Below, one piece after another: positions 1,972 to 13,278 of a stretch of 34,204 nt of DNA (its first letter is position 1; every line of letters starts with the position of its first letter). Made by a program: the position numbers and the translations under genes. The notes beneath the pieces were generated by a model. It was not told the DNA's origin. It worked only from the letters and a program-made list of their open reading frames with translations, and ran no database searches. The stretch lies in UHGV virus genome UHGV-1976995; one strand, 5' to 3'. The stretch is from a virus.

Positions 1972-2168
1972 TGGTTGCCTCCTTTGCGCCACGTCGCATT
2001 CAGATATCTGTTGTCGTTAACAGAACCGAAACTCTTTCTCTTAAGCAATTCCTCTCTCGATGGCATTGGCTTTACGCGTTGGCGAATAATCATTTCTGCC
2101 GGAAGAATGCCGGGATTGTATGCAAGTCCTCTCATGGTAAATTCCTCAGTCATTACTGATAGCGCCAT
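1968..2168 (-). CDS. hypothetical small protein (start uncertain)
   Basis: Track ORF 1968..2288 trimmed to an internal ATG because the upstream part overlaps the 2146..2442 gene; no strong RBS; stop overlaps the next start. Confidence 0.25.
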
Positions 2169-2442
2169 AGCGTGAGCGGTAATTACGCAGGCGCGGGTCG
2201 ATATATTCAGGGAAGTTGGTATATGTGGCTTTGCGGAATGGTCGGATTGATGTCTGGTAAATTCGCTCGCGTTCTTCTTTCTCTGCAAGCCATATACAAT
2301 GGCGAAATTCCTTTTCCTCTTTCGTTTCCTGCGGTAGCGACATTATCCGGTCGTAGTTTTTCCTGAATTTATCCAGCACCTCCGATACGGAATTGCCGGA
2401 ACAGCGGCGCGGGTCATCCGCACCATACTGAGGCGCTGGCAT
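2146..2442 (-). CDS. conserved phage early protein, function unknown
   Basis: 98-aa ORF directly downstream of ssb in the same operon; compact spacing. Confidence 0.45.
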
Positions 2443-2455
2443 GATTTTCTCCTGA

Positions 2456-2962
2456 TTAAATTGCGTGAATAGCGTGACGAGGGAAGGGGAGAGTTACTGG
2501 TGCAAAGGGTATATCGTCGTCAAAATCCATCGGAGGTTCGTTGTGTTGTGCTGGTGATGATTGCTGCTGTGGCTTCTGTGATTGCCTGCTGGCTGCTTGT
2601 TGTTTGCTGTCGCCAATGCTGCCAAGCATTTGCATCACGCCATTAATTCCGACATGAACCTCGGCTGTGTAACGGTCTTGCCCTGACTGGTCTTTCCACT
2701 TTCTGGTTCTCAGCATTCCCTCGAAATAAATCTGATCACCTTTTTTCACATACTGCCCCACGACCTCAGCCAGTTTCCCGGATACAGCAACACGATGCCA
2801 TTCAGTCAATTCCTTTTGCTCGCCAGTATTTTTATCTCGCCATTGTTCTGACGTGGCTATTGTCAGGTTAGCGAACGCTGTTCCTGATGGTGAGTATCGA
2901 ACTTCCGGGTCTTGTCCTACCCGACCAAGGATAATCACCTTATTTACGCCTCTGCTTGCCAT
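2456..2962 (-). CDS. ssb: single-stranded DNA-binding protein
   Basis: N-terminal OB-fold signature ([18 protein letters not shown]...WHRVAV), Gln/Pro-rich linker and acidic C-terminal tail ending DDDIPF. Confidence 0.9.
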
Positions 2963-3670
2963 CTATGCCGCCTGTTTTAGTTCGTTAACTCTGATGTTCA
3001 TTACCTGAATGCATTTAGCCTGCGCCTCCTCGTTGCCAGCCATTAATTGCCAGTCACGCTGATAACGCTCGATGAGTTTTTTCTTGTCAGTTTCTGTTGA
3101 CGCATAATCGCTGAAGTCTTTCAGGATTTGTTCGCAGTCAACCGATGGAGATTTCTGGTTGGTATTTTCTGGTGATGGTTTGTTATCTGATGCTGGGATT
3201 GCCCATCCCGGCAGCGATGGAGGGGACCAGTAAAATCCTGTTCCATCCTTCAGTTTTGCCCTGTGCCACCCCTGCTTTTTATCGAGAGATGTTTGTGCGA
3301 AACCTTCCTCAAGGTTATACAGATACCGACCGATTCCCCACTGAACGGCAGCACGCTTCATTGCACCGGAACGACCACCTTTGACGGCTTCTACCTGCGT
3401 GTTTTCAGCAGCATCCCATTTGGTTACCCATTCGGAATCAATCTTGATTGATATGCCGCATTCAACTCCGCCGTTGTTGGGAATATCGCGGTATTCATTG
3501 CGCCATCCTGCTTTGCCGCAAACATCGTCCAGGCGTTTCATGATTGCCCGGTTCGTGACATAAGCCAGCACCATAGCCCACACCTTGCCATCGCGTGTTT
3601 TACCGCTTTGCTGTATTCGCCATTCGATATCTTCAGGGCTGAATGGCTCATCGAATTTGTTCAAATCCAT
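2963..3670 (-). CDS. single-strand annealing recombinase, Rad52/Erf-type
   Basis: 235-aa protein immediately upstream of ssb in a lambdoid recombination module; start 1 nt from the ssb start; family assignment from memory of Rad52-like phage SSAPs. Confidence 0.55.
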   Translation of the reverse strand: MDLNKFDEPFSPEDIEWRIQQSGKTRDGKVWAMVLAYVTNRAIMKRLDDVCGKAGWRNEYRDIPNNGGVECGISIKIDSEWVTKWDAAENTQVEAVKGGRSGAMKRAAVQWGIGRYLYNLEEGFAQTSLDKKQGWHRAKLKDGTGFYWSPPSLPGWAIPASDNKPSPENTNQKSPSVDCEQILKDFSDYASTETDKKKLIERYQRDWQLMAGNEEAQAKCIQVMNIRVNELKQAA

Positions 3671-3772
3671 AATTCACCTCAGAATGGACACGGCCCAAGG
3701 AAATAACGCTGATTTAATACTTCGACTCGGGACAAATTAAGGCATACCCGCATTCCTTCGCGGTCACCATTA

Positions 3773-3928
3773 TGGCGATACCAGAGAGCTTTCTGCGTGT
3801 ACATGCGTCTCTGTAACTTGCTCTCCTTCACTGTGGTTGCAAGTGACATGAATATCTCCTTCGTTACCGATTAATTCTTTCATCTGACGAATGAATTCTT
3901 CGTCTGACCAGTTATCTGTAAAACTCAT
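3773..3928 (-). CDS. small acidic hypothetical protein (51 aa)
   Basis: Hand-translated; ATG overlaps the stop of the kil-like ORF (ATGA); located directly upstream of the recombinase. Confidence 0.3.
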
Positions 3929-4077
3929 TTCCTGCGATACCACGGAAGGTTGATAGCTGATTTCATCGCTTTATTTGCTTCAAGCCACATTTTTGAATCA
4001 CCAATAAATCTGGCTATTACTGCTTTGTTCTGTGCAGCACGAAGCATCTGGTGATTGATGGCTATTTCATTGCGCAT
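3925..4077 (-). CDS. kil: Kil-like small protein (50 aa)
   Basis: Hand-translated; motif IARFIGDSKMWLEA resembles what I recall of lambda Kil (ATFIGDEKMF...EA); sits downstream of cIII as in lambda. Confidence 0.35.
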   Translation of the reverse strand: MRNEIAINHQMLRAAQNKAVIARFIGDSKMWLEANKAMKSAINLPWYRRK

Positions 4078-4193
4078 AATAAGACCTCAACTCTTTTCCA
4101 TCCGTCACGTAATTTACGGGTGATTCGTTCAAGTAAAGATTCATTTAGTTGGAAGGCACCCATGCGAGCGCCTCCCGCGATTGCGTAAATCAT
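4062..4193 (-). CDS. cIII: CIII-like regulator (FtsH inhibitor), 43 aa
   Basis: Hand-translated MIYAIAGG...ESLLERITRKLRDGWKR, closely matching the lambda CIII core as I recall it; AAGGAA RBS. Confidence 0.6.
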   Translation of the reverse strand: MIYAIAGGARMGAFQLNESLLERITRKLRDGWKRVEVLLCAMK

Positions 4194-4217: not shown

Positions 4218-5186
4218 TTAGTAGGTTATTTTTGTTGCGAATACTTCGCCTTTTACGATGGCTGTTATGATATTTTTAGCAACATCTTCTGATGCGCCAA
4301 CCTTGATAAGGTCAGCAAGTATTTTGTTATTTACTTCTTTCCGGTGATCTTTATCCTTTGCTCTACGCTCTTCTTCGTCCTTGATTCTTTTTTCTTCTGC
4401 TATTCTGGCTTGCTCTTTTGCTTCAGCATCGCGACGGATTTGTTCAGCCTCCTCCTGTGCTTTTCTGCGTTCTGCTTCAATTGCTGCCTGCTTTTCTCTT
4501 TCAGCTCGTTCTGCTGCCTCTTTTGCTTCGCGCTGTGCTCGTTGCTCGGCTTCAATGCGTTCACGCTCTGCACGTTCTGCTGCGGCCTTAGCTTCTGCTT
4601 CTCGCCTTGCTGCTGCTTCAATTTCGGCTTTTGCCTTTGCTTCGGCTTCTGCTCTGGCTTTCTCTTCAGCTTCTCTTTTTAATCGTTCTTCATGCTCTCG
4701 CTTTTCCTGCTCCGCTTTGAGTCTTGCCTCTTCTCTTTGGCGGTCAAATTCGCGATCCATCAAAATCGCTATTTCATGGTCAGACTCAATTTGCTTTGCG
4801 AGAGCTTCAGCTGCTGCCTTAGCTTCTTCTTCGGCTTTAATCCGCGCCTGTTCTTCCTCATAATCAGTAAGAGGCTGGCGTGCCTTGGCTTTCAGCTCAT
4901 CAAGGCGATCACGCACTGTCTTGCGGTTGGCATCAATTAGCTTTGGAATTTCCTTCAGTTCAGCAACAAGGTCTTTGCCAAGACCATCGAGATATGTTTT
5001 CGTCTGCGCAACTTTATACGCCAGAGAAGCGATCTCCTTTCTGCCCTTTGCCGTTGTGATATCAGGCACAAAGGACATAACTTCACGTTCAACCTTTTGA
5101 AGGATTTCTTCAATCTGGTCGGAAGACTGAAATACAGTCATTGCATTTGCTTTTTCAATAACAACTAAATCTGTTACTTCACTCAT
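4218..5186 (-). CDS. coiled-coil protein with long EAKA/RERE charged repeat region (DUF1351-like?)
   Basis: 322 aa; globular N-terminus followed by about 170 aa of Glu/Ala/Lys/Arg-rich predicted helix; strong AAGGAGGA RBS. Confidence 0.6.
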   Translation of the reverse strand: MSEVTDLVVIEKANAMTVFQSSDQIEEILQKVEREVMSFVPDITTAKGRKEIASLAYKVAQTKTYLDGLGKDLVAELKEIPKLIDANRKTVRDRLDELKAKARQPLTDYEEEQARIKAEEEAKAAAEALAKQIESDHEIAILMDREFDRQREEARLKAEQEKREHEERLKREAEEKARAEAEAKAKAEIEAAARREAEAKAAAERAERERIEAEQRAQREAKEAAERAEREKQAAIEAERRKAQEEAEQIRRDAEAKEQARIAEEKRIKDEEERRAKDKDHRKEVNNKILADLIKVGASEDVAKNIITAIVKGEVFATKITY

Positions 5187-5220
5187 ATATCCTCCTTCGT
5201 TGTATTCTTTAAAAACGCTC

Positions 5221-5589
5221 TCAGGCGGCTTTGATAGTCATATCATCTGAATCAAATATTCCTGATGTGTCGATATCGGTAATTCTTATTCCTTCGCTAC
5301 CATCCATTGGAGGCCATCCTTCCTGACCATTTCCATCATCCCAGTCGAACTCACAAACAACACCATATGCATTTAAGTCTTTCGAAATTGCTATAAGCAG
5401 AGCATGTTGCGCCAGCATGATTAATACAGCATTTAATACAGCGCCGTGTTTATTGAGTCGGTATTCAGAGTCTGACCAGAAATTATTAATCTGGTGAAGT
5501 TTTTCCTCTGTCATTACGTCATGGTCGATTTCAATTTCTATTGATGCTTTCCAGTCGTAATCAATGATGTATTTTTTGATGTTTGACAT
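5221..5589 (-). CDS. acidic hypothetical protein (122 aa)
   Basis: Track ORF with GAGGA RBS; Asp/Glu-rich, especially the C-terminal third. Confidence 0.5.
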   Translation of the reverse strand: MSNIKKYIIDYDWKASIEIEIDHDVMTEEKLHQINNFWSDSEYRLNKHGAVLNAVLIMLAQHALLIAISKDLNAYGVVCEFDWDDGNGQEGWPPMDGSEGIRITDIDTSGIFDSDDMTIKAA

Positions 5590-5606
5590 CTGTTCATATC
5601 CTCACA

Positions 5607-5634
5607 GATAAAAAATCGCCCTCACATTGGAGGG
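5607..5634 (-). terminator. intrinsic terminator inside the early-left operon (tL-like)
   Basis: On the minus strand GCCCTC-CAATGT-GAGGGC followed by GATTTTTTAT. Confidence 0.4.
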
Positions 5635-5728
5635 CAAAGAAGATTTCCAATAATCAGAACAAGTCGGCTCCTGTTTAGTTACGAGCGACATTGCTCACAT
5701 AGCAGACTCGTAAATCTGCTATAGGCGC

Positions 5729-5887
5729 TTATTCGCATCGCATGACAACATCAAATTTTTCGAGATTACTTTGTCGCAACAATCCTTCTTCTACGCGGTC
5801 AGCTTTTCTATAATTATCAAATTCGAAATGTTTGATTACTTCTTTCGTTTCTCGCTCTATAACTTCAACAATGTATTTCTTATTCAT
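5729..5887 (-). CDS. small hypothetical protein (52 aa)
   Basis: Hand-translated; tandem ATGATG overlapping the TGA of the upstream gene. Confidence 0.3.
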   Translation of the reverse strand: MNKKYIVEVIERETKEVIKHFEFDNYRKADRVEEGLLRQSNLEKFDVVMRCE

Positions 5888-6183
5888 CATTCTTCCCCAA
5901 GAGCTTTTCTGATTGCTGCAAGACCTTTATTAACAGCTCCATACCATTCTGGATATGTTGTCGTTGTTCTATTTTTGGTTTGCTTAAGTAATAACTGAAG
6001 TGCTTCGAGAAGGTCAGGTGCTGCCGCTATTAGATTGGCATCTTCAATGCATTGAACTTCCTCACAGATTGCAATATACGAACGCCAGCCTGCGCCATTT
6101 TCAAGTGAGTCTGCCTGGATGATTTTAATCTCATCGCCATCCATCATTATTTCCCACTTACCTTCAGTACCTTTAAATTCCAT
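5887..6183 (-). CDS. hypothetical protein (98 aa)
   Basis: Track ORF; AGAGG RBS; acidic. Confidence 0.45.
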   Translation of the reverse strand: MEFKGTEGKWEIMMDGDEIKIIQADSLENGAGWRSYIAICEEVQCIEDANLIAAAPDLLEALQLLLKQTKNRTTTTYPEWYGAVNKGLAAIRKALGEE

Positions 6184-6222
6184 GTTAGCCTCTGTTGTTT
6201 ATGCCAAAAATAAAGGCCACCA

Positions 6223-6474
6223 TCAGGCAGCCTTGTTGTAAATGTTGCAGGTATCAAGTAAGTAATTAGATGGTGCGCCATAAATTATGAATTCATCGTT
6301 TGTCGGGTCCATCTCCATCTCTTGGCCTATTGCCATTCTTGCGTCAGTGTCATCAGCGGCGAAGCATAAAACAGCCCACGCACCCATTGTTTTAAAAAGA
6401 ACTGCAATTGGCTGTGGTTTTACTGAATTTGCGTTAGCGCGAAAATCACAAATCGCACTTTCATGAAATTCCAT
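6223..6474 (-). CDS. hypothetical protein (83 aa)
   Basis: Track ORF; GAGGTGAT RBS; first gene after N. Confidence 0.45.
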   Translation of the reverse strand: MEFHESAICDFRANANSVKPQPIAVLFKTMGAWAVLCFAADDTDARMAIGQEMEMDPTNDEFIIYGAPSNYLLDTCNIYNKAA

Positions 6475-6482
6475 ATATCACC

Positions 6483-6782
6483 TCAAATAAGTGGTTTGCT
6501 GCCTAATTTCATTTTCTGGCGACCAACACAAGTCACACCCATTTCACTGCGTGGCTTGCGGTAGTAAATACGATTCTGTTTACGCTCGACTTCTTCTGCC
6601 TTCTTGCAGCGAAGGCTTCCTAGTGATGCTGCTTTATCTGCTCTGACGCAACCAGAGAGCTTTAGCGCAATTTTTCGCGCCAGTCGCTGCTCTTGCATTG
6701 CCTGTTCACGTTGAGCCTGTCTGCGTGCTCTGCGGCGATTTCTGGCGTTATCGTCAGCCAGATATGTAATGACTACTGTCAT
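6483..6782 (-). CDS. N: N-like transcription antiterminator
   Basis: Arg-rich motif near the N-terminus (NARNRRRARRQAQREQ), the RNA-binding motif type of lambdoid N proteins; resembles phage 21 N from memory; GGAGGT RBS; downstream of nutL. Confidence 0.75.
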   Translation of the reverse strand: MTVVITYLADDNARNRRRARRQAQREQAMQEQRLARKIALKLSGCVRADKAASLGSLRCKKAEEVERKQNRIYYRKPRSEMGVTCVGRQKMKLGSKPLI

Positions 6783-7140
6783 GTTGACCTCCGATGATTG
6801 ACTTTGGCGGTGACGCGCCGGGTGCTTATCTTCCGGTTGCCGTCGTGCAGCTGCACTTCACGTCACCCCAAAGCCAACTACTCTTTGACTCACACTCTCG
6901 CAGTGAGCGCGCTCATGCCCTTGAGTCTCTGTCGCTTATTAGCCGCTGATAACCGGTGCGCGTCTGGCATTCGCGCTGCCTTTCCGGAGCATGTTCCCTT
7001 ATTTACCCTCACATCGGTCTGCTAAACCTGCTCGCCATTACGCGACTCGGGGCAGCATCATTACTGCTGCATTGCCTTTCGGCTGCGGTCTAACCGCGTT
7101 AGTGCACCATTACGGCACCTCCTGTTTGGTTAAACTCAGT

Positions 7141-7181
7141 TCCCGCATTTCGGCGGGACAATCCCATCAATGTTAAAGAGC
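7141..7181 (-). promoter_or_regulatory. nutL (boxA GCTCTTTAACA and boxB hairpin)
   Basis: In leftward-transcript sense: GCTCTTTAACA, spacer, then TCCCGCCGAAATGCGGGA, the same 18-nt hairpin as at nutR. Confidence 0.6.
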
Positions 7182-7224
7182 CTGCCAATCTGTTCCGTTT
7201 GGCTTCCAGCGTCCTGCTGATGGC

Positions 7225-7330
7225 TAAAGAATACTGTAGGTATTTTATTGTGTAAATACCCAAGGTATTTATTTTTGATGAAATAATGATAAACAAATGA
7301 ATACAAAGGATATTTATTTTTTCGCTGTCT
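7225..7330 (-). promoter_or_regulatory. OL/PL region: candidate operators and leftward promoter
   Basis: 17-bp dyads GAATAC-TGTAG-GTATTT (7229..7245) and AAATAC-CCAAG-GTATTT (7254..7270), 25 bp apart; weaker third site 7309..7325; candidate PL TTTACA-N17-TATTCT on the minus strand. Confidence 0.45.
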
Positions 7331-12932: not shown

Positions 12933-13111
12933 GGCGACAGCGACGAAGTTTCACCGACATCATCTGCGAAAACTGCAAATACCTTCCAACGAAACGCTCC
13001 AGAAATAAACGCAAGCCAATCCCAAAAGAATCTGACGTAAAAACCTTCAATTACACAGCTCACCTGTGGGATATCCGGTGGCTTAGAGAACGTGCGAGGA
13101 AAACAAGGTGA
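12929..13111 (+). CDS. ninE: NinE
   Basis: [23 protein letters not shown]... closely matches lambda NinE from memory; ATGA overlap with the upstream gene. Confidence 0.8.
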
Positions 13112-13278
13112 TTGACCCAAATCGAAGTTACGAACAAGAAAGCGTCGAGCGGGCTTTAACGTGCGCTAACTGCGGTCAGAAGCTGCATGTGCTGGAAGTT
13201 CACATGTGTGAGCACTGCTGCGCAGAACTGATGAGCGATCCGAATAGCTCAATGTACGAGGAAGAAGACGATGAGTGA
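13108..13278 (+). CDS. ninF: NinF (56 aa)
   Basis: Hand-translated from a GTG overlapping the ninE stop: [32 protein letters not shown]..., matching lambda NinF from memory. Confidence 0.7.

What the first reader, a model, noticed from the sequence alone, without database searches (positions are those of the whole stretch)
5221..5589. Acidic 122-aa early protein: candidate DNA mimic or anti-defence factor
Strongly Asp/Glu-rich, especially the C-terminal third (DWDDGNGQEGWPPMDGSEGIRITDIDTSGIFDSDDM), and encoded early in the PL operon, where lambdoid phages carry anti-restriction and host-takeover genes. A terminator-like hairpin sits just upstream. The neighbouring 98-aa and 83-aa early ORFs (5887..6474) are also acidic.
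Basis: inference. Interest (0 to 1): 0.45.

Follow-up and report, generated by a model that had tools for sequence, protein, structure and literature searches.

The report
Phage lambda ea10 gene orthologue
This ORF is the long-known early gene ea10 of phage lambda (Pfam DUF2528), whose function is still unknown: a compact, strongly acidic 122-residue protein present in about four in ten complete E. coli genomes, with real and conserved acidity but no evidence yet that it is a DNA mimic.

Summary
Window 5221..5589(-) encodes a 122-aa protein with pI 4.3 and net charge -14. It lies about 1.6 kb downstream of PL/nutL, with an intrinsic terminator directly upstream.

- **Hairpin:** it is lambda tL2a, the 3' end of the published Hfq sRNA PreS/LPR1. 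PreS and ea10 travel together as one ~0.5-kb mosaic block, found in 2242 of 5426 complete E. coli genomes.
- **Function:** no paper in the held library assigns Ea10 a function. It is dispensable for plaque formation and was abundant enough to be mistaken for Kil.
- **Structure:** AlphaFold2 gives a confident compact alpha+beta fold (pLDDT 95). It has no significant relative in the PDB, including known DNA mimics and SSBs.
- **Family:** 591 clusters, all-phage. Acidity is conserved, and so is an almost invariant EGWPxMDGSxGI loop. Distant members sit after MuA-MuB in Mu-like prophages.
- **Legacy "ssb" label:** the same operon encodes a genuine OB-fold SSB, so the label is unconvincing.

My best guess (about 0.4) is a stoichiometric inhibitor or decoy of a conserved host nucleic-acid-handling protein. 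The DNA-mimic idea is neither supported nor refuted. This is a known gene of modest interest.

The parts
5221..5589 (-). ea10 orthologue: 122-aa acidic DUF2528 protein
   Evidence: ORF. Pfam PF10800 at E=4e-46 and phrog_646 at E=8e-70. 97.5% aa identity to lambda Ea10 (J02459 33536..33904) and 100% to phage mEpX2. AF2 model pLDDT 95.2.
5599..5603 (-). Shine-Dalgarno GAGGA, 9 nt upstream of the ea10 ATG
   Evidence: Read directly from the sequence. Identical in lambda.
5606..5637 (-). Intrinsic terminator tL2a: GC-rich hairpin 5637..5616 plus U-tract
   Evidence: Terminator scan. Identical to lambda except for one loop base. Named tL2a, the 3' end of LPR1/PreS, in bioRxiv 10.1101/2024.10.31.621285.
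5606..5696 (-). PreS (LPR1)-like Hfq-dependent sRNA, about 88-91 nt, ending at tL2a
   Evidence: Near-perfect identity to lambda begins 107 nt upstream of the ea10 ATG, which is about where the published ~88-nt PreS species would start. Predicted fold -28.9 kcal/mol, z=-3.7. No Rfam family matches.
7221..7292 (-). PL promoter with operators OL1-OL3
   Evidence: Exact matches to the annotated pL, OL1, OL2 and OL3 of phage HK620.
7141..7182 (-). nutL (N-utilisation site)
   Evidence: Exact match to the annotated nutL of HK620.
6483..6782 (-). Antiterminator N-like gene; its product is needed to read through tL2a into ea10
   Evidence: phrog_271 at E=5e-37 and a weak Pfam N_peptide hit. 99% DNA identity over the 5' part (window 6782..6591) with HK620 N.

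Best explanation
Identity (shown). The ORF is the orthologue of bacteriophage lambda gene ea10, the type member of Pfam DUF2528, carried here by a P22-like E. coli phage. It sits in the PL early-left operon directly behind the tL2a terminator/PreS sRNA. It should therefore be made as a delayed-early protein only after N-mediated antitermination (inferred by homology to lambda and HK620).

Product (predicted). A compact, well-folded alpha+beta domain: a beta hairpin, four helices including a buried hydrophobic helix (residues 51-70), a long conserved loop (88-100) and a third strand. It is not a disordered acidic tail.

Mechanism (inferred, about 0.4). Ea10 acts stoichiometrically as a binding inhibitor or decoy of a conserved host protein that handles nucleic acid, either a defence or repair nuclease or a replication/recombination factor. 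It would dock through its conserved negative surface and the nearly invariant EGWPxMDGSxGI loop together with D22/H23. It is an accessory host-takeover or counter-defence factor, not an SSB.
For: Identity:
- 97.5% aa identity to lambda Ea10, with the flanking non-coding DNA also conserved.
- Full-length DUF2528 match.

Early, N-dependent expression:
- PL, OL and nutL map upstream; tL2a lies 15 nt before the Shine-Dalgarno.

Stoichiometric accessory role:
- Lambda Ea10 is abundant enough to have been mistaken for Kil (PMC3961180).
- It is dispensable for plaque formation (PMC10695390).
- An IS10 insertion in ea10 is viable (PMC2327257).

Folded binder:
- pLDDT 95.2, pTM 0.86.

Functional charge:
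- pI is below 5 in 117 of 120 distant representatives and 4.05-4.79 in A1.

Conserved docking site and conserved target:
- D22, F37, E90, G91, D96, G97 and G100 are at least 90% conserved across 91 diverse members.

Phage-only early accessory gene:
- 591 clusters, almost all single-domain proteins of 110-140 aa.
- In lambdoid phages it sits in PL operons next to kil, cIII, ral and gam. In Mu-like prophages it sits directly after MuA-MuB and before GemA-Mor.
- It is absent from true plasmids.
Against: - No binding partner is known or predicted here.
- An invariant cluster of polar residues (D22, H23, R44, E90, D96, S98) would fit a ligand- or metal-binding or catalytic site equally well.
- Such strict loop conservation is unusual for proteins that chase fast-evolving defence proteins.
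- I could not compute surface electrostatics.
- The legacy 'ssb' label may rest on biochemical data that I could not trace.
Confidence: 0.4

Rival explanations
1. Ea10 is a true DNA mimic: an anti-restriction or anti-nuclease decoy in the manner of Ocr, ArdA or Ugi. Its carboxylates would imitate the phosphate backbone. This is the first reader's specific proposal and a narrower version of my best explanation.
For: Net charge is -14 and pI 4.3, comparable in density to Ugi-type mimics. Acidity is conserved family-wide. The protein is early and abundant and lies next to ral in lambda.
Against: No fold or sequence match to any solved mimic. Only 9 of 23 acidic positions are at least 80% acidic in A1, and conservation peaks in a W-P-x-M-D-G loop. 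The gene is not found on genuine plasmids, unlike ArdA-type genes. It coexists with Ral and Gam in lambda and with Abc2 here rather than substituting for them.
Confidence: 0.15
2. Ea10 is a small ligand-binding protein or enzyme, for example a sponge for a nucleotide immune signal or a metal-dependent activity. The invariant polar cluster would be its site.
For: D22, E90 and D96 are nearly invariant, and H23, R44 and S98 are highly conserved, with a Gly-rich loop, from Enterobacteria to delta-proteobacterial and Gallionella prophages. Abundance would fit a sponge.
Against: No similarity to known sponges (Tad1, Tad2, Acb2) or to any enzyme fold in the PDB. No Pfam match other than DUF2528 among 91 members. 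I could not check whether the conserved residues cluster in space.
Confidence: 0.15
3. Ea10 is a replication or recombination accessory factor that works alongside PreS, which raises the level of the DnaN clamp. It would act on a host or phage replisome component.
For: PreS and ea10 are inherited as one 0.5-kb block in about 76 of 80 viral loci while both flanks vary. PreS supports lambda DNA replication. Distant homologues directly follow MuA-MuB or a Toprim primase.
Against: The linkage may reflect only physical adjacency, since the PreS terminator ends 15 nt before the ea10 Shine-Dalgarno. Every early Mu gene follows A and B. CRISPRi knockdown of ea10 gives no plaque defect.
Confidence: 0.12
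4. Ea10 is a single-stranded-DNA-binding protein, as the legacy 'ssb' annotation in lambda and many phage records says.
For: Annotated as 'ea10 (ssb;122)' in J02459 and as an ssDNA-binding protein in many records.
Against: No PF00436 or other SSB family hit. The predicted fold is alpha+beta rather than an OB fold, and no SSB appears among the structural matches. Net -14 with only three conserved basic residues. This same operon already encodes a genuine OB-fold SSB at 2456..2962 (E=5.5e-36). NCBI now names the protein only 'DUF2528 family protein'.
Confidence: 0.06
5. Ea10 is a soluble SPFH-like domain that modulates the FtsH/HflKC protease, and so CII/CIII stability and the lysis-lysogeny decision.
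Confidence: 0.04

Closest known systems
Bacteriophage lambda Ea10 (gene ea10, 'ssb'; lambdap45; Pfam PF10800 DUF2528; PHROG 646)
   Same: Same length (122 aa) and 97.5% identical. Same Shine-Dalgarno and same upstream tL2a/PreS sequence. Same operon position between the N-proximal accessory genes and cIII-kil.
   Different: Three amino-acid substitutions. The host phage is P22-like, related to IME10, HZ41 and HK620, rather than lambda. Upstream, ral/orf28/sieB are replaced by 83-, 98- and 53-aa ORFs. Downstream, a 322-aa coiled-coil gene is inserted before cIII.
DNA-mimic anti-restriction and anti-nuclease proteins (T7 Ocr, ArdA, lambda Gam, PBS2 Ugi)
   Same: Small, very acidic, early-expressed, dispensable phage proteins made in quantity.
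   Different: No sequence or structural relationship. Compact alpha+beta fold with an invariant hydrophobic/Gly loop. No demonstrated target. Not found on plasmids.
OB-fold single-stranded DNA-binding proteins (PF00436)
   Same: Only the historical gene label 'ssb'.
   Different: No OB fold, no family match, acidic throughout. A true SSB is encoded separately at 2456..2962.
Lambda PreS/LPR1 sRNA with terminator tL2a (bioRxiv 10.1101/2024.10.31.621285)
   Same: GC-rich stem plus U-tail.
   Different: One base differs in the terminator loop. Expression and Hfq binding were not tested here. No Rfam model exists.
SPFH/Band-7 domain (HflK, HflC, stomatin)
   Same: Best, though weak, structural resemblance: a two-layer alpha/beta arrangement.

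Membership tests
DUF2528 / lambda Ea10 family | Match to Pfam PF10800 above its gathering score, over the whole domain | tested here: met
   156.2 bits against a cutoff of 22, E=4.1e-46, profile positions 1-104 of 104. phrog_646 positions 1-122 of 122.
DUF2528 / lambda Ea10 family | Orthology to lambda ea10: near-identity plus a conserved position in the PL operon | tested here: met
   97.5% aa identity to J02459 33536..33904. Non-coding DNA upstream is identical for 107 nt bar one base. N lies upstream and cIII and kil downstream.
DUF2528 / lambda Ea10 family | Family motifs VEIDH, INxFW and EGWPxMDGSxGI | tested here: met
   All are present in the window protein. Conservation was measured in A1 (59 sequences) and A3 (91 sequences).
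DNA-mimic proteins (Ocr, ArdA, Ugi, Gam type) | Strong net negative charge | tested here: met
   Net -14, pI 4.31. Conserved in the family.
DNA-mimic proteins (Ocr, ArdA, Ugi, Gam type) | Sequence or fold relationship to a known mimic | tested here: not met
DNA-mimic proteins (Ocr, ArdA, Ugi, Gam type) | Surface carboxylates arranged like a DNA phosphate backbone | not testable with these tools
   Model coordinates are not exposed, so I could not compute electrostatics or carboxylate spacing.
DNA-mimic proteins (Ocr, ArdA, Ugi, Gam type) | Binds and inhibits a DNA-binding enzyme | not testable with these tools
   Needs biochemistry or genetics. No report exists in the held literature.
Single-stranded DNA-binding proteins (SSB) | OB fold / PF00436 or a related SSB family match | tested here: not met
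   No SSB family hit. The predicted fold is beta-beta-alpha4-beta. The genuine SSB is at 2456..2962.
Single-stranded DNA-binding proteins (SSB) | Binds ssDNA | not testable with these tools
   The basis of the legacy 'ssb' label could not be traced in the held library.
SPFH / Band-7 domain | Significant structural or profile similarity to SPFH domains | tested here: inconclusive
PreS/LPR1 sRNA - tL2a (for the upstream hairpin) | Sequence identity to the lambda ral-ea10 intergenic sRNA, with a GC hairpin plus U-tail | tested here: met
   106/107 identical. Terminator scan. Fold z=-3.7.
PreS/LPR1 sRNA - tL2a (for the upstream hairpin) | Hfq binding and activation of dnaN translation | not testable with these tools
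   Shown experimentally only for lambda.

The most novel reading that the evidence does not exclude
Ea10/DUF2528 is the founding member of a new-fold family of abundant, acidic, early inhibitors shared by lambdoid and Mu-like temperate phages. It would neutralise one highly conserved host nucleic-acid-processing or immunity complex through charge mimicry plus insertion of the invariant Trp-Pro-x-Met-Asp-Gly loop. That would make it a previously unrecognised, very widespread counter-defence or takeover mechanism, present in about 40% of E. coli genomes.
Probability: 0.25. Interest if true: 0.6.

Novelty: already known. Interest (0 to 1): 0.27.

Why it matters
Ea10 is one of the last abundant early proteins of the best-studied phage that still lacks a function. 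The PreS-ea10 block is present in 41% of complete E. coli genomes, including Stx prophages.

If Ea10 proves to be an inhibitor of a conserved host enzyme or immune system, it would explain a 50-year-old orphan and add a widespread counter-defence family with a new fold.

There are two practical points. [quoted passage not shown] Classical lambda deletions that remove ea10 also remove the PreS sRNA, so past phenotypes are confounded.

As a scan finding, however, this is a rediscovery of a known, named gene.

Tried and rejected
- **Foldseek against afdb50:** the library is not installed, so I found no structural neighbours outside the PDB and BFVD. BFVD gave one hit that is probably a family member.
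- **Locus scan with the broad alignment A3:** it had no stretch conserved enough, so I used A1 instead.
- **IMG/VR scan:** it returned only near-identical E. coli loci. These were useful for mapping mosaic boundaries but not for distant context.
- **Lambda-host two-hybrid paper (Blasche 2013):** not held. The lambda-lambda interactome paper says only that Ea10 had one interaction and does not name it in the searchable text.
- **Literature searches:** Ea10, DUF2528, PF10800, phrog_646, lambdap45 and the motif string found no functional study. One multi-term search returned only noise.
- **Rfam:** no family covers the upstream sRNA.
- **NCBIfam:** no model.
- **Fusion proteins:** rare longer family members (179-217 aa) have N-terminal extensions. 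I did not scan them against any family library, so they give no domain clue.
- **Rejected motif ideas:** an EF-hand-like reading of DWDDGNGQE, because spacing and conservation do not fit; and mimicry of the SSB C-terminal tip by FDSDDM, because it is not C-terminal and only D116 is conserved.

Full report
**Observation**

Window 5221..5589 (minus strand) is an ATG-initiated ORF of 122 codons, preceded by GAGGA nine bases upstream. It has 23 Asp+Glu against 9 Lys+Arg, giving net -14 and pI 4.31. The last 42 residues hold 11 acidic and 2 basic residues. Among 61 non-overlapping ORFs in the window it is third by negative charge density, and the most acidic ORF of 100 aa or more. The neighbouring 98-aa and 83-aa ORFs have pI 4.56 and 4.24. 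A terminator-like hairpin lies at 5637..5616(-), followed by TTTTTTAT.

**Identity**

The protein matches Pfam DUF2528 over the whole model (E=4e-46, 156 bits against a cutoff of 22). It also matches PHROG 646, annotated "unknown function". tblastn against phage genomes shows 100% identity to phage mEpX2 and 97.5% identity to the lambda gene annotated "ea10 (ssb;122)" at J02459 33536..33904. The same gene occurs in phages 21 and 434 and in about 200 Stx and other lambdoid phages.

The carrier is a P22-like E. coli phage. Its closest relatives are IME10 and HZ41, with 73% coverage at 97.6% identity.

**Operon context**

Exact matches to annotated HK620 features place the regulatory elements as follows:
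- OL3-OL1 and pL at window 7292..7221.
- nutL at 7182..7141.
- The N-like gene at 6483..6782(-).

Downstream of ea10 lie these genes:
- a 322-aa coiled-coil ORF;
- cIII (4062..4193) and kil (3925..4077);
- a Rad52-type annealing protein (2963..3670);
- a genuine OB-fold SSB (2456..2962, PF00436, E=5.5e-36);
- Abc2 anti-RecBCD (2146..2442);
- an Ea22-like gene.

The statement "early in the PL operon" is therefore correct.

**The hairpin**

Aligned with lambda, near-perfect identity begins 107 nt upstream of the ea10 ATG and runs to the stop codon. Sequences beyond both ends are unrelated. This upstream segment is the lambda ral-ea10 intergenic region. A 2024 preprint showed that it encodes the Hfq-dependent sRNA LPR1/PreS (about 88 and 68 nt). 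The sRNA's 3' end is terminator tL2a, and it up-regulates host dnaN and supports lambda replication. The window copy differs by one loop base. It folds with the terminal GC hairpin and U-tail (-28.9 kcal/mol, z=-3.7).

In 80 IMG/VR loci that carry ea10, the shared block is window ~5700..5205. Both flanks are shared by only 4 of the 80. PreS plus ea10 is thus a ~0.5-kb mosaic module. It occurs in 2242 of 5426 complete E. coli genomes, with up to 6 copies per genome.

**What is known about Ea10**

In the held literature:
- ea10 is dispensable by CRISPRi (PMC10695390).
- It tolerates an IS10 insertion (PMC2327257).
- Its product is abundant enough to have been mistaken for Kil (PMC3961180).
- Its role "is not fully understood".

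No paper that mentions Ea10, DUF2528, PF10800, phrog_646 or lambdap45 assigns a function.

**Structure**

With a 59-sequence alignment, AlphaFold2 gives pLDDT 95.2 and pTM 0.86. The elements are strands 4-11 and 15-22; helices 28-37, 41-48, 51-70 and 74-80; a long loop 81-100; and strand 101-107. The protein is a compact domain, and helix 51-70 carries no acidic residue.

Fold and sequence searches found no significant relative:
- Foldseek against the PDB finds nothing below E=3.
- BFVD gives one likely family member.
- Sequence and profile searches of PDB chains are empty.

No known DNA mimic, sponge, SSB or anti-restriction protein appears in any of these results.

**Family**

A profile search of 1.84 billion representatives finds 591 clusters, almost all single-domain proteins of 110-140 aa. 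Acidity is conserved: pI 4.05-4.79 in A1, and pI below 5 in 117 of 120 distant representatives. The strongest conservation is not a charge array. It lies in D22, F37, E90, G91, D96, G97 and G100, and in the motifs VEIDH, INxFW, R44 and EGWPxMDGSxGI. All 91 diverse members hit only DUF2528 and phrog_646, with no functional family.

**Wider context**

Distant homologues lie in Mu-like transposable phages and prophages of Salmonella, Citrobacter, Pseudoalteromonas, Burkholderia and Stenotrophomonas, and in delta-proteobacterial MAGs. There they sit directly after the rve transposase and AAA_22 (MuA-MuB), often next to DUF3164, and before GemA-Mor. In other loci they follow a Toprim primase. Only 19 of 72,556 plasmid records contain the gene. 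The two I opened (H78 and its near-twin H79) are a P22-like phage genome; another seven are 47-48.5 kb, the size of lambda (48,502 bp), three of them from non-E. coli hosts; the rest (50 kb to 4.9 Mb, plus one 7-kb fragment) I did not inspect. The family is a phage early-region accessory gene.

**Interpretation**

I consider the identity as lambda ea10 settled. For mechanism, several features fit best with a protein that binds and blocks or redirects a conserved host protein that handles nucleic acid (about 0.4):
- abundance;
- dispensability in the laboratory;
- N-dependent early expression;
- family-wide negative charge;
- a rigid fold with one nearly invariant loop;
- neighbours that are stoichiometric host-protein inhibitors (Kil, CIII, Gam/Abc2, Ral).

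**Verdict**

It is extremely common and is catalogued as a domain of unknown function.

This re-examination adds the following:
- recognition of the ORF as ea10 and of the hairpin as tL2a/PreS;
- a confident fold with no solved relative;
- conserved acidity together with an invariant loop;
- the distribution in Mu-like phages;
- evidence that the "ssb" annotation is probably wrong;
- a warning that classical ea10 deletions also remove PreS.

Noticed in passing
window 5606..5696 (-): The segment just upstream of ea10 is the lambda PreS/LPR1 Hfq sRNA ending in terminator tL2a (106/107 nt identical). PreS and ea10 are inherited together as a ~0.5-kb mosaic block. Classical lambda alleles such as (sieB-ea10)<>cat therefore delete both, which confounds their phenotypes.
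   Followed up: yes
window 2456..2962 (-) and 2146..2442 (-): The same PL operon encodes a genuine OB-fold SSB (PF00436, E=5.5e-36) and the P22-type Abc2 anti-RecBCD protein (PF11043, E=4e-61), next to a Rad52-family annealing protein at 2963..3670. The 'ssb' label carried by Ea10 in many records looks redundant here.
   Followed up: partly
L086-L099, L103, L106, L109 (genome contigs); plasmid hits H83-H85: Copies of ea10 at 96-98% identity turn up in assemblies of Pseudoxanthomonas, Enterococcus, Bradyrhizobium, Tardiphaga, Arthrobacter, Paenibacillus, Shewanella, Kitasatospora, Neobacillus and others. Several sit on contigs whose names give coverage of about 1, a few of them about 48.5 kb long, and there are 48.5-kb 'plasmids' of Stenotrophomonas, Paenibacillus and Salmonella. 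These are almost certainly lambda control-DNA contamination, not real hosts.
   Followed up: partly
window 4218..5186 (-): A 322-aa Glu/Lys/Ala/Arg-rich coiled-coil ORF lies between ea10 and cIII. Records annotate it as TolA-like or 'cell envelope biogenesis protein'. It is present in only 4 of 80 ea10-bearing viral loci, has no Pfam family, and matches phrog_1376 (unknown function).
   Followed up: partly
window 6213..6474 (-): The 83-aa acidic ORF occupies the slot of lambda ral. It shares only ral's last codons and the following terminator-like hairpin (6234..6213) with lambda. This short junction is conserved in 29 of 80 loci, while the ORF body is shared by 5, which suggests a recombination boundary sequence.
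   Followed up: partly
window 6888..7138 (-): About 250 bp lie between nutL and the N gene that are absent from HK620. The insert is present in mEp213 and some Stx2c phages. Its content was not examined.
   Followed up: no
window 3770..3943 (-) and 13108..13278 (+): Two small ORFs are even more acidic per residue than ea10: 57 aa with net -10, just downstream of kil, and 56 aa with net -11. The 57-aa ORF had no Pfam hit; the 56-aa ORF was not scanned.
   Followed up: no
L113, L116, L108, L117, L002, L003 (Mu-like prophages and phages); L100, L120: In Mu-like elements, DUF2528 homologues sit immediately after the transposase (rve) and MuB-like AAA_22 ATPase, often beside DUF3164, and upstream of GemA and Mor. 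In two enterobacterial loci they follow a Toprim/DUF5906 primase. DUF3164 recurs next to DUF2528 in 4 loci.
   Followed up: partly
L104 ~5960..5990 and L120 ~5910..5945 (upstream of the ea10 homologues): Diverged enterobacterial homologues (58% and 52% identity) also have an unrelated GC-hairpin plus T-run just upstream of the gene. A terminator in front of ea10 therefore recurs with a different sequence.
   Followed up: no
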